From Lingula anatina (lineage: Eukaryota; Animalia; Brachiopoda): a DNA stretch of 64,000 nucleotides. The stretch is taken from assembly GCA_051362555.1 (NCBI GenBank), contig CM120642.1, positions 25,420,001 through 25,484,000 of the forward strand. The letters are read 5' to 3'. A program made the translations under genes and the position numbers. Below the pieces are notes generated by a model. That model had not been told where the DNA came from and ran no database searches. It saw nothing but the letters and a program-made list of their open reading frames with translations. This document shows positions 10,101 to 13,119 of the stretch, piece after piece (the stretch's first letter is position 1; each line of letters begins with the position of its first letter).

Positions 10101-13100
10101 TCGCTTTGTACCTACCAAATTCTTGTCCAAAGAGCCTGGAAACCGTGAGCGCAAAGTGAAAGGAGAGACCGACTCAAACTGATCTTCATATTCATCCTCA
10201 GAATCTCTCATTTCAGTGTTTCTGTCGCCCAGATACATATCTCTTTCTTCCTCGTCCTCTTCCTCTCCTCCTTCCTCCTCCTCCTCTTCTTGTCTGCTGC
10301 ATGTATCAATGGGGTCTTCTTCCTCCTCAGTGTCATCATGTAGAGAAGGGAAGGCCCCCTCTACAACAGAAGAGGCAATATTTAACTGTTGGTATGCTGT
10401 GGAGAGGCCATTAGTGTTATCATTACTATTACACAGGACAGGTTGGTCCTCTAGACTGTTTTCCCTGTCCGAAAACACACCCAAATCCTCCTCCTCCTCT
10501 AACTGCAAGTCCTCATCCTCATCTTCCTCATCTCTATCCTCATCCTCATCACCCTTTTCTGAGACACTGTCACAGTGATTAGACTGAGATTGTTGATCGT
10601 TCCTTGTATTACTGGGACTGGCCAGTCCCATGGATGCCTCTCCATTATTATTAGCATGTGTACATGGGGAACTGGCGTCTTCTCTAGCGCAATCAGAACA
10701 ATGGTCTCCTCTAACACAATCGGCACACTGTGAGTCTGCACTATGGGAACTGTGCCTGCTCTGACACTTCAACTCACTGTTGCCACAGCCACAAGCCTCA
10801 CTGGAGTGACTGGGCTGGTTTTCAGAAGCTCTACTACACCTACAGGCAAACGTCTCCACCACCACTTCCCTCGTGCTCCCTGGGTTCTTTATACCACAGT
10901 CTACATCTTGGGTCGGGTTTGAATCCTGACAAGTGCAAGTTATCTGTTCGTTTTCTACCTCCCTGCCTGATGCTGAAGGTGAGACCTCGTCATGACGCTG
11001 CTGGGAATTACAACTGCTGCCTGGTTGTTCTGCCCTGCTCTTCTCTGCCATGCACCTTCTGCCGCGCAACTCCCTGCTGCTGCTGCAATCAGAAATAATC
11101 ACTTTACATACTTAACAACTTCAGTGTGCGTGTGCGTGTGTCCATGTGCGTGTATGTGTGCGTGTGCCTGTAGGTGTGTGAATGTGTGTCTACATGGCTG
11201 AAAGCATTTGCAGGCAGACTTGCATGTTAAACACCAGAGTTGCTCATATTCAGTGTCAGGTTTAATGAAGAATCCTGCTGTCACCAATAATCACACTGCC
11301 TTTATGACAACTATGACATAATCAATGCACACCTGACACAGCACATATTAAACATAACGTAATAAACTCAAGGCATCTGTGCAAAATTGAATGTCTCACT
11401 GGCCCGTAAATGCCATCACCAAAACAATCATGGTATCTAATCAGTCCTTAGTTGATGAATCATACAGCATATATCAGTTTTTCAAAATGTCAGGAAGAAT
11501 CAGAACGAAAACATGGTTGTCTACCTTAAATTCAATGTGTCTGTAACAGTATTACAAGGAGTTTTACAAACACAGGTGTCCTGTAGGATTGGCTTCCCTT
11601 TATTCTGAAATATCTTTAAAGATAAATACATCATTACCCACCTTTCAAATTTTTTCTGTCTTCTTGTTTTGTTACATGTCAATTTGCCCAGATTTTCTTC
11701 CAAAGCACCTGGACCGATGCCAGGAACTCGTCGCAAGTCACTAACGCTAGCAAATGCTCCAAATTTCTGAAAAGAAATATTATAATGAGGTACAAAACCA
11801 ATAACCTATCTATATATAACATGTGGATGTGACAACAGGATGTGGTCCGGAAAGTCTTCCCAGAATTTCATAAATGAAAACATTACGCCTTTATTGATAC
11901 AGACATGACTCTTATATTAAATTTCAATTAATTTTAATATCAACATTATGGACGAAAAAAAAAATCCGTATGCAACGTTATGATTCAGTAATCTCAATGA
12001 ATCAGTAACATAGTCGAGTCCTGGAAACAATTCTTAGAAATACAATTAAACTAGACAAAAATAAGTAGCGCAAGACCAGTTTTGCTCTATATTCAAATGT
12101 AAAGACTTCACAAGTCATACTATGTGATTTAATCATCAATATTTCACTGAGGTAAGACCTGCAAAACTAATAAAATACTTCTCATTGTCTATATCTTGCC
12201 TGCCAAGCACAATTACAAGTAAGTTATGCCGCACATGTCTACAGTGAAACATCAAAAAAATGAGTCAGGAAAAAAATACAAGCACAAGGTGAACTCTCTC
12301 ATAACCTATACATCCCTTTATCACTTATATTTTCACCACATATTCTAAAGTAATTTTTGTTGCAAACAAGCTCAGTTAGTAAAAAAATCCAAAAGATATT
12401 TTTTTAAATTTCCTATAAAAGCATATCAAAAACATTGTTTTGCAACCTACAGCTTTGAACAATGTATGATGGGCAAAAAAATGTGTTTCTCAACTAGATC
12501 CATTTTTTTGCAAATATGACATTGACAAGCATAATTAATTTATAAATATTTCAGAATTCATTCACAAATCTGCTTTGGGATTTTAGTCAAACAGTTACAA
12601 AATTACCAGAAATCAATGCTATCAAATCATCATGAGGATACCATTGTGCACTGTGCATCCTATTTCTAGGTAAAATGTAAACCTAACAATACAGTGATTG
12701 GCACTCAATGTTTAATATTAAGTATTGCCACATTCAGCAAGTGTCAAAAATGACATGAAGGAAGACAGCAGAGCTTACTATTGATATTTTCATGTTAATT
12801 ATGAATATGTGAACATCATTTTGTCAAAATAAAAAAAAACTTGTGAAAAGAGCTTTTATTTCTTGTCTGTCAATCACACATCTTTCCACCTACTTTTTTT
12901 TACCAATTCAGTGATAAATTAGGGTAGTGTAAAAAAAAACATCTTACCAAATAAAACCAATTCAAGCACTTGGGAAAACTGACTGGTATCACCCCAGCCT
13001 CTTACCTTTCTGTAGTCAAAGATGGCCTCTGCCTTGGTTCTTCCAATACCAACTAGGCCTGCTAAGTCATCTACGGAAGCCGAGTTGATATCTAGTCTCT

Positions 13101-13119
13101 TGCCCCTACTGGTGGCCAT
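4149..13119 (-). CDS. FBXW7: F-box/WD repeat protein 7 with an N-terminal helix-hairpin-helix domain, 12 coding exons, about 938 aa
   Basis: Exons 13006-13119, 11642-11766, 10116-11082, 9598-9677, 8721-8847, 7831-7965, 7434-7700, 7080-7193, 5967-6148, 5256-5481, 4669-4879, 4149-4417. All introns are GT-AG with compatible phases; the total is 2817 nt. Diagnostic FBXW7 sequence: MKRK common exon, D-domain/F-box ([10 protein letters not shown]...[40 protein letters not shown]), WD40 blades ([71 protein letters not shown]) and the C-terminal [17 protein letters not shown]. Confidence 0.95.
6645..6862. mobile_element. MITE family A copy (FBXW7 intron)
   Basis: Imperfect TIRs cattcccacagattttagatc...gatctaaatctatgggaatg with internal palindromes. 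Near-identical copies lie at about 41663-41875 and, inverted, at 55938-56153. Confidence 0.8.
8097..8339. mobile_element. Palindromic MITE, PIF/Harbinger (Tourist)-like
   Basis: Arms of about 85 bp (ggctgcattcacatgaaaaatct...gtgccctgaatacccc / ggggtattcagggcac...tttttcatgtgaacggtccc) flanked by TAA on both sides. Confidence 0.8.
11642..13119 (-). CDS. Two exons encoding a ComEA/EEPD1-like double HhH domain at the FBXW7 N-terminus
   Basis: [69 protein letters not shown] matches the pattern hDINxAxxxxLxxLxGIGxxxAxxIhxYRxxxGxFxSxxDLxxVxGIG. The phase-2 donor at 11642 matches the acceptor at 11082. Confidence 0.85.

What the first reader, a model, noticed from the sequence alone, without database searches (positions are those of the whole stretch)
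10116..13119. FBXW7 fused to a ComEA/EEPD1-type helix-hairpin-helix DNA-binding domain
Seen: two small exons upstream of the large acidic exon encode [54 protein letters not shown], a double HhH. They splice in phase (0, then 2, then 0) through the acidic exon into the conserved MKRK common exon, with no stop codon. Known: FBXW7/Ago/SEL-10/Cdc4 is the SCF phosphodegron receptor for Myc, cyclin E, Jun and Notch. The vertebrate, fly and worm proteins I know have no HhH domain; their isoform-specific N-termini set localisation. (HhH)2 modules such as ComEA and the EEPD1 N-terminus bind DNA without sequence specificity. Inference: this lineage may have a DNA/chromatin-tethered SCF-FBXW7 ligase that degrades substrates on DNA or at damage sites, possibly created by exon shuffling from an EEPD1/ComEA-like gene.
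Basis: partly seen in the sequence, partly recalled or inferred. Interest (0 to 1): 0.88.

Follow-up and report, generated by a model that had tools for sequence, protein, structure and literature searches.

The report
Ancestral DNA-gripping arm on FBXW7
In this brachiopod, the gene for the tumour-suppressor ubiquitin-ligase receptor FBXW7 is spliced to a front-end helix-hairpin-helix domain that likely grips DNA; the same design occurs in molluscs, annelids, amphioxus and a second FBXW7 gene of sharks, salamanders, reptiles and birds, while the mammalian gene keeps only a worn-down remnant, so FBXW7 was probably a DNA-tethered ligase in early animals.

Summary
RNA reads in 8 of 8 runs laid join both HhH exons through the acidic exon to the FBXW7 core. 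The 12 coding exons give an open 938-aa frame that matches RefSeq Lingula anatina XP_013378993.1. Residues 7-69 are a ComEA-type (HhH)2 (Pfam HHH_3 60.9 bits; model 0.9 Å from ComEA 8DSS). The ComEA DNA-binding lysine is K/R in 96 of 96 full-length copies.

The idea of a lineage-specific invention is wrong. Of the 120 closest FBXW7 proteins, 50 carry the whole domain: molluscs, an annelid, a nemertean, a hemichordate, amphioxus, and a separate vertebrate paralog (sharks, lungfish, salamanders, caecilians, reptiles, birds including chicken). Two losses explain the tree. Canonical vertebrate FBXW7 keeps a degenerate second HhH motif in the 23 codons before the alpha start Met.

Likely mechanism (untested): two HhH arms on an FBXW7 dimer hold the SCF ligase on DNA without needing substrate. 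Ten literature searches found no description. Range outside these phyla and loss in mammals were not tested on genomes.

The parts
14808..14900 (-). Non-coding 5' exon (upper end approximate; an alternative donor at 14584 had 4 reads in one run)
   Evidence: Joint 13138/14808, 90 reads in 8 of 8 runs
13006..13138 (-). HhH exon 1: ATG at 13119, aa 1-38, first helix-hairpin-helix (G24-I25-G26; K29 codon 13035-13033; R37)
   Evidence: Pfam HHH_3 33.6 bits; reads; K29 aligns to B. subtilis ComEA K164
11642..11766 (-). HhH exon 2: aa 39-79, second helix-hairpin-helix (G54-I55-G56), invariant C69, basic tail
   Evidence: Pfam HHH_3 22.4 bits; reads; model pLDDT 92-96 over aa 11-70
10116..11082 (-). 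Large exon, aa 80-402: predicted disordered, acidic linker (net charge -54), in the place of the vertebrate alpha exon
   Evidence: pLDDT below 50; no Pfam hit; charge; read indels sum to multiples of 3
9598..9677 (-). First common FBXW7 exon (MKRK, basic NLS-like segment), aa 403-428
8721..8847 (-). Common exon leading into the dimerization (D) domain
7831..7965 (-). D domain and start of the F-box
7434..7700 (-). F-box and linker helix
   Evidence: Pfam F-box-like 54.3 bits
4149..7193 (-). WD40 propeller exons (7193-7080, 6148-5967, 5481-5256, 4879-4669, 4417-4149 with stop); phosphodegron arginines R695, R709, R735 correspond to R465, R479, R505
   Evidence: Open frame; WD40 Pfam; residue mapping

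Best explanation
This is an intact FBXW7 whose main transcript adds an N-terminal ComEA-type double helix-hairpin-helix domain, likely the ancestral bilaterian form, and that domain is predicted to hold the SCF ligase on double-stranded DNA without needing a substrate. Shown here: splicing and expression; an intact D domain, F-box and degron pocket; a long low-confidence linker; and strong conservation of the HhH, including the residues ComEA uses to bind DNA. [quoted passage not shown] After a duplication before sharks and bony vertebrates split, one copy (annotated FBXW7-like, beside RRP8) kept it. The canonical copy lost HhH exon 1 and retains a degenerate second motif as the first 23 codons of the alpha exon. 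Inferred mechanism: the Gly-x-Gly hairpins and Lys29 contact the phosphate backbone with no sequence preference. One domain binds weakly, but an FBXW7 dimer carries two on flexible tethers and gains avidity. The ligase would then wait on accessible DNA and ubiquitylate phosphorylated DNA-bound substrates (Myc, Jun, Notch ICD, SREBP types) in place.
For: Splicing and frame. Fold: AlphaFold model of aa 1-80 matches ComEA 8DSS best (Foldseek E 2.4e-6, rmsd 0.9 Å over 61 columns; VIA Z 12.2, rmsd 1.4, 70 aligned); its four helices without a connector helix fit ComEA's atypical (HhH)2 (PMC9747964 passages). Residues: K29 aligns to chain K108 of 8DFK; an offset of 56 places all four lysines of that paper (K164, K193, K197, K199), so K29 is K164, whose Geobacillus equivalent K166A abolishes EMSA binding and whose Vibrio equivalent is K63 (PMC3879209). 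Position 29 is K/R, and G26 and R37 are invariant, in 96 of 96 full domains (many are isoforms or close species). Mean column conservation is 0.61 in the HhH against 0.15 in the linker (30 rows). Distribution: 50 of 120 proteins full, 17 of 120 second half only, 53 of 120 none. Tree of 65 rows: paralog clade 100/99, canonical clade 99/95, amphioxus outside; 2 changes of state over 61 rows scored. Remnant: the best HhH-exon-2 profile window lies at -23..+8 of the alpha Met in 19 of 19 and 14 of 14 further N-extended canonical models. Degron-pocket residues are kept in all 15 proteins compared, apart from one S426C. EEPD1 needs a dimer and several (HhH)2 for stable DNA binding (PMC12988330). FBXW7 dimerizes through the D domain (PMC8573206). 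Human Fbw7 reaches chromatin only through substrates (PMC8926403).
Against: No binding assay was done or found. The same fold occurs in proteins not known as dsDNA tethers: PsbU, GspK/XcpX, Tex, SPT6 and TEFM all appear. The isolated EEPD1 (HhH)2 pair does not bind DNA stably. The ComEA K193, K197 and K199 positions are G58, E62 and L64 in Lingula. The second hairpin reads G-I-T in all 60 vertebrate-paralog copies classed as such. The Lingula domain has a net charge of only +2, and the range is -2 to +7. The acidic linker is not universal (near neutral or basic in Owenia, Sinanodonta, Glandiceps, Branchiostoma). HHalign of the canonical extension to the HhH is weak (probability 41.7%, E 2.7e-4), and the remnant sequences are not independent. 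Only 120 of 1043 hits were seen, with no named arthropod, nematode, echinoderm, cnidarian or sponge record. The tree is unrooted.
Confidence: 0.62

Rival explanations
1. The HhH binds DNA but mainly at stalled forks, gaps or breaks, as EEPD1 does, making this form a repair-focused ligase rather than a general chromatin-waiting one.
For: EEPD1 clamps dsDNA at reversed forks with (HhH)2 pairs. Human FBXW7 is brought to breaks by PAR and ATM and ubiquitylates XRCC4 (review PMC8573206). EEPD1 is the top whole-sequence PDB hit.
Against: ComEA-type domains bind DNA without sequence specificity, and nothing here shows a preference for structured DNA. The human protein reaches breaks without an HhH.
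Confidence: 0.15
2. The domain binds RNA, RNA-DNA hybrids or the transcription elongation complex, like the HhH of Tex, SPT6 and TEFM, and so brings the ligase to active genes.
For: Tex (Z 10.8), TEFM (Z 7.5) and SPT6 (Z 6.7) are among the nearest folds. FBXW7 substrates are mostly transcription factors.
Against: ComEA ranks first by sequence and by structure, and the ComEA minor-groove lysine is kept in 96 of 96.
Confidence: 0.1
3. The domain is a protein-interaction or localisation module (co-factor docking, or self-inhibition by the acidic linker) and no longer binds nucleic acid.
For: PsbU and GspK share the fold. XPF-ERCC1 and Mus81-Eme1 use (HhH)2 to heterodimerise. Net charge is low, and C69 is invariant although the aligned ComEA and EEPD1 stretches end before it.
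Against: The invariant surface positions are those used for DNA contact in ComEA (G26, K/R29), and the vertebrate paralog has a run of three basic residues there.
Confidence: 0.11
4. The fusion is an annotation or read-through artefact, or a recent lineage-specific exon capture with no function.
For: Read-through gene models do occur in this family: RRP8 joined to FBXW7-like in birds and turtles. No long read spans the Lingula transcript.
Against: Junctions in 8 of 8 runs. Whole HhH-FBXW7 frames lie on 2.2-6 kb Logan contigs of other species, which are likely transcripts. The domain is conserved across five phyla.
Confidence: 0.02

Closest known systems
Human FBXW7alpha (Ago, SEL-10, Cdc4 family), SCF phosphodegron receptor
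   Same: D domain, F-box, WD40 propeller and degron-pocket residues; about 84% identity over the core to canonical vertebrate proteins; an acidic exon before the MKRK exon.
   Different: No intact HhH. Only a degenerate second motif upstream of the alpha Met, with the hairpin glycines gone. Chromatin association depends on substrate (PMC8926403).
Vertebrate FBXW7-like paralog (e.g. chicken XP_015136409.1, axolotl XP_069496574.1, lungfish, sharks), often mis-named RRP8 isoform in RefSeq
   Same: Same HhH - linker - D - F-box - WD40 order, same inferred HhH exon boundary, intact degron pocket.
   Different: Shorter linker (95-157 aa against 332), more basic first hairpin, G-I-T second hairpin. 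It exists beside a canonical copy, and no paper on it was found.
ComEA DNA-binding domain (PDB 8DSS, 8DFK, 2DUY; Pfam HHH_3 PF12836)
   Same: Fold (rmsd 0.9 Å), hairpin glycines, and the K164/K63 and R71 equivalents.
   Different: Bacterial DNA-uptake receptor outside the cytoplasm. K193, K197 and K199 equivalents are not kept in Lingula.
EEPD1 (PDB 9YI2)
   Same: Animal protein with N-terminal (HhH)2 on flexible linkers attached to a dimerising core, where avidity is needed for DNA binding (PMC12988330).
   Different: Two (HhH)2 per chain and an EEP core. It scores lower than ComEA per domain, and descent from it is not shown.

Membership tests
FBXW7/Ago/SEL-10 | F-box followed by WD40 propeller | tested here: met
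   Pfam F-box-like 61 bits, WD40 180.6 bits; model
FBXW7/Ago/SEL-10 | Degron-pocket arginines R465, R479, R505 (numbering recalled, confirmed on the 707-aa deer protein) | tested here: met
   R695, R709, R735; also W425, R441, Y519, R543, R689 equivalents
FBXW7/Ago/SEL-10 | D (dimerization) domain before the F-box | tested here: met
   Aligns with mean conservation 0.80; dimer formation itself not tested
FBXW7/Ago/SEL-10 | Orthology with vertebrate FBXW7 | tested here: met
   Groups with lophotrochozoan FBXW7, outside both vertebrate paralogs; no outgroup family was included
FBXW7/Ago/SEL-10 | Binds SKP1 and ubiquitylates phosphodegron substrates | not testable with these tools
   Needs biochemistry
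ComEA-type (HhH)2, PF12836 | Score above the Pfam cut-off over the whole model | tested here: met
   60.9 bits against 27, model 4-65 of 65
ComEA-type (HhH)2, PF12836 | Four-helix fold with the two HhH motifs joined by a loop | tested here: met
   Predicted helices 16-20, 26-40, 46-51, 57-63; 8DSS top hit
ComEA-type (HhH)2, PF12836 | Gly-h-Gly hairpins and the K164/K63 lysine | tested here: met
   Both hairpins and K29 in Lingula; K/R29 in 96 of 96; second hairpin G-I-T in the vertebrate paralog
ComEA-type (HhH)2, PF12836 | Sequence-independent dsDNA binding | not testable with these tools
   Needs EMSA or anisotropy
EEPD1 | Two (HhH)2 domains plus an EEP domain | tested here: not met
   One HHH_3 stretch and no EEP family among the 25 of 39 Pfam hits shown; the rest of the chain is linker, F-box and WD40
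EEPD1 | HhH exons descend from an EEPD1 gene | tested here: inconclusive
   ComEA scores higher than either EEPD1 domain; the representative search returned only multi-HhH proteins; own genome not held

The most novel reading that the evidence does not exclude
The ancestral bilaterian FBXW7 was a DNA-binding SCF receptor. Jawed vertebrates split its work between an HhH-bearing, self-tethering paralog (kept in sharks, lungfish, salamanders, caecilians, reptiles and birds; lost in mammals) and the canonical tumour suppressor. The canonical alpha start codon arose inside the decayed second HhH motif, and that copy now reaches chromatin only through substrates, PAR or ATM.
Probability: 0.55. Interest if true: 0.9.

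Novelty: new variant of a known kind. Interest (0 to 1): 0.8.

Why it matters
FBXW7 is among the most studied tumour suppressors, and how it finds DNA-bound substrates is an open question; in human cells it reaches chromatin only through substrates (PMC8926403). A built-in DNA-binding domain in the ancestral form, still present in a chicken, axolotl and shark paralog with an intact degron pocket, gives a natural comparison that can be tested at once in chicken DT40 cells. It also means FBXW7 loss-of-function work in birds, reptiles and salamanders may be masked by an unrecognised second gene. Finally it explains the origin of the alpha exon's conserved, stop-free 'untranslated' start. The architecture already sits in RefSeq and in precomputed Pfam hits, but my searches found no paper that describes it.

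Tried and rejected
Word-seeded search with aa 1-80 among 515-1640 aa proteins found only the Lingula protein (1 of 61 candidates). That was a sensitivity failure, overturned. The HMMER search of 50% representatives with aa 1-80 gave 25,406 hits, but the best 150 were multi-HhH proteins and none carried an FBXW7 core, so it says nothing about origin. The ESM Atlas returned bacterial and phage ComEA-like clusters for aa 1-80 (feature scores 0.81-0.85, leads only; TM 0.78-0.85) and ordinary FBXW7 clusters for the hemichordate protein, with HHH_3 not among the three families shown. No RNA holder was listed in the run index; raw-read runs of the same species label were laid instead. No whole genome is held, so other HhH genes and FBXW7 copies in this genome were not checked. 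A remnant of HhH exon 1 in canonical vertebrate FBXW7 was not found, and no remnant of either exon was found in three caenogastropods. Literature: FBXW7 + helix-hairpin-helix gave 1 paper, on SMUG1; FBXW7 + HhH gave 8, none relevant by title or abstract start; 'FBXW7-like' had 0 occurrences in the 20 listed of 29,689; HhH1 + F-box + WD40 gave 0; FBXW7/ohnolog/lost in mammals gave 13, of which PMC2446394 was read in passages and only maps canonical Fbxw7; FBXW7 + N-terminal extension gave 15, of which PMC12045569 was read in passages and is about SUFU. Supplements of two papers on genes lost in mammals have no 'FBXW7' string (PMC5901865, 19 files; PMC10208646, 4 files), but they list many genes by ID only. 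Subscription journals and bioRxiv supplements were not searchable. No complex prediction was run, because the tool takes no DNA and the D-domain dimer is already known.
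Full report
1. The observation. The minus strand carries an FBXW7 gene with 12 coding exons from an ATG at 13119 to a stop at 4149. All introns are GT-AG and the frame is open for 938 aa. The acidic exon finds one longer protein, RefSeq XP_013378993.1 of the brachiopod Lingula anatina, 937 aa, 97% identical over that exon. 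The window model differs from it at 12 positions, none in aa 1-105. Pfam HHH_3 covers aa 7-68 at 60.9 bits against a cut-off of 27, and each exon matches its own half of the model.

2. Expression. I laid 8 of the 9 listed RNA runs, 6-30% of each. Summed junction reads were 90 (13138/14808), 130 (11766/13006), 159 (11082/11642), 85 (9677/10116) and 91 (8847/9598), with reads for each joint in all 8 runs. Stranded libraries put first mates on +, which in most such libraries means minus-strand RNA. One search lists every joint with 3 or more reads: none skips an HhH exon, and the intron above the acidic exon has almost no depth. The HhH form is therefore the main transcript in these samples. The reads are short and come from other individuals, so linkage across the 967-nt exon rests on continuous coverage, the RefSeq model, and whole frames on 2.2-6 kb Logan contigs of other species.

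3. The domain. The full-length AlphaFold model has pLDDT 92-96 over aa 11-70, below 50 over most of aa 75-454, and a well-formed propeller. A model of aa 1-80 matches Geobacillus ComEA 8DSS best (rmsd 0.9 Å over 61 columns; Z 12.2), followed by Tex, Thermus ComEA, TEFM, KIF22, SPT6, GspK and PsbU. By sequence, B. subtilis ComEA 8DFK is the best single-domain match (43.9 bits), ahead of EEPD1's two domains (30.1 and 22.3). In that alignment K29 faces chain K108. An offset of 56 puts all four lysines named in PMC9747964 on lysines, so K29 is ComEA K164. Its Geobacillus equivalent is needed for EMSA binding (passages), and the Vibrio equivalent K63 is modelled in the minor groove (PMC3879209 passages). 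Across 96 full copies, position 29 is K or R in 96, and N12, G26, A30, R37, F43 and C69 are invariant. Against this: the K193, K197 and K199 positions are not kept in Lingula, the vertebrate paralog has G-I-T in the second hairpin, and net charge is modest.

4. The ligase half is intact. W425, R441, S462, T463, R465, R479, R505, Y519, R543, Y545 and R689 (numbered on the 707-aa deer protein) are present in Lingula and in all 15 proteins compared, including the paralog. The D domain and F-box are conserved at 0.80 and 0.94.

5. Distribution. A search with aa 400-660 gave 1043 proteins, of which 120 were listed. An HMM built from FBXW7 HhH domains found the whole domain in 50 of 120, the second half only in 17, and nothing in 53. 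The 53 are 46 canonical vertebrate proteins, 3 caenogastropods, and 4 models that begin at or near MKRK (Priapulus and three paralog models). Named carriers include bivalves, a chiton, vetigastropods, pulmonates, Owenia, Lineus, Glandiceps and Branchiostoma. They also include vertebrate 'FBXW7-like' proteins of chimaera, sharks and rays, lungfish, newts, axolotl, caecilians, turtles, squamates, alligator and birds, chicken among them. A tree of the core (65 rows chosen from the 120, HhH excluded; IQ-TREE) puts vertebrates in one clade (100/97), split into an HhH-bearing clade (18 rows, 100/99) and the canonical clade (22 rows, 99/95), with amphioxus outside. HhH presence needs 2 changes over the 61 rows scored; 4 truncated models were left out. 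Counts cannot tell gain from loss. With carriers on both sides of the protostome-deuterostome split, two losses is the simple reading. No mammal, frog or teleost appeared in the paralog clade or its listed cluster members, but no genome was searched. Many bird, turtle and lizard models of the paralog are named as RRP8 isoforms, which implies adjacency. That RRP8 (human 11p15.4) and FBXW7 (4q31) lie in paralogous regions is recalled, not tested.

6. A remnant in the canonical gene. Models that hold only half the domain begin at aligned position 39 (bird and turtle read-throughs, a caecilian isoform, Tubulanus), which is where the Lingula phase-0 intron falls. N-extended canonical models from sharks to mammals mostly share their sequence from the same position, 23 codons before the alpha Met. 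A profile of HhH exon 2 scores that window first among 660-828 windows in 19 of 19 proteins (z 4.1-6.9; at most 1 of 5000 shuffles reached the score, also with an invertebrate-only profile). It does so again in 14 of 14 further models picked only by the alpha start motif. The alpha Met sits at HhH position 62, and the hairpin glycines are gone. HHalign gives only 41.7% probability (E 2.7e-4), the register was first noticed in HMM output, and the sequences are related, so this is strong support but not proof. PMC3498124 (passages) treats the human upstream exons as non-coding. An earlier AI note (e1-7911392) reports a 570-nt stop-free alpha exon and a longer Cys-rich isoform. That fits 23 + 167 codons but is not independent evidence, and by its summary it does not mention the HhH.

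7. Mechanism. Most likely the domain binds the dsDNA backbone without sequence preference. EEPD1's isolated (HhH)2 pair binds poorly and needs its dimer (PMC12988330 passages). FBXW7 dimerizes through the D domain (PMC8573206 passages), so a dimer would present two domains on long flexible tethers. Human Fbw7 leaves chromatin when its substrate-binding arginine is mutated (PMC8926403 passages). The HhH form is predicted not to. I put 0.62 on general DNA tethering, 0.15 on fork or damage targeting, 0.10 on RNA or elongation-complex binding, 0.11 on a protein-only module and 0.02 on artefact. The donor of the domain and its date before bilaterians are open. That fly Ago and worm SEL-10 lack it is recalled, not tested.

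8. Novelty. The sequences and automatic Pfam hits are public. Ten full-text searches and two supplement sets gave no description of an HhH on FBXW7 or of the paralog; subscription journals are not covered. Interest 0.8.

Noticed in passing
window 14900-13120 (-), 5' UTR: Three out-of-frame upstream ATGs (-85, -37, -14); the ORF from -14 overlaps the main start. The first lies in an AAGATGGCG motif, which I recall as a YY1 site near transcription starts. Possible translational control.
   Followed up: partly
window 11082-11073 (-): Four tandem in-phase CAG acceptors; only 11082 is listed as used in reads.
   Followed up: partly
P0375, P0100, P0067, P0071, P0388 (canonical vertebrate FBXW7 long models): A Cys-rich N-terminus conserved from sawfish to horse replaces HhH exon 1 and splices onto the HhH remnant; it might be lipidated (guess).
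   Followed up: partly
P0057, P0066, P0076-P0097, P0277, P0278: RefSeq models in birds and turtles fuse RRP8 to the second HhH exon of the FBXW7-like gene and name the product RRP8, which hides the paralog in databases.
   Followed up: partly
P0023, P0040, P0065: Three caenogastropods (Babylonia, Batillaria, Littorina) have long N-termini but no HhH or remnant, an apparent second independent loss.
   Followed up: partly
P0001 C69: A cysteine closing the domain is invariant in 96 of 96 copies; its role is unknown.
   Followed up: no
P0020: The Branchiostoma model repeats part of the D domain, probably a gene-model error.
   Followed up: no
window 20615-23340 (-): Multi-exon gene that looks by eye like a tetraspanin, upstream of FBXW7.
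   Followed up: no
window 37700-39100 (+) and 44050-45600 (-): Two pyrimidine-rich low-complexity blocks in opposite orientation (GC skew -0.65 and +0.69; similar ORFs), perhaps arms of a large inverted-repeat element.
   Followed up: no
window 8924-9087 and 16427-16772: Short interspersed repeats with heavy read depth on both strands and loose ends at fixed borders.
   Followed up: no
window 53567-54259 (+) and 49951-50514 (-): An exon that looks like a von Willebrand A domain, and one ending in what looks like the start of a FYVE finger (by eye).
   Followed up: no
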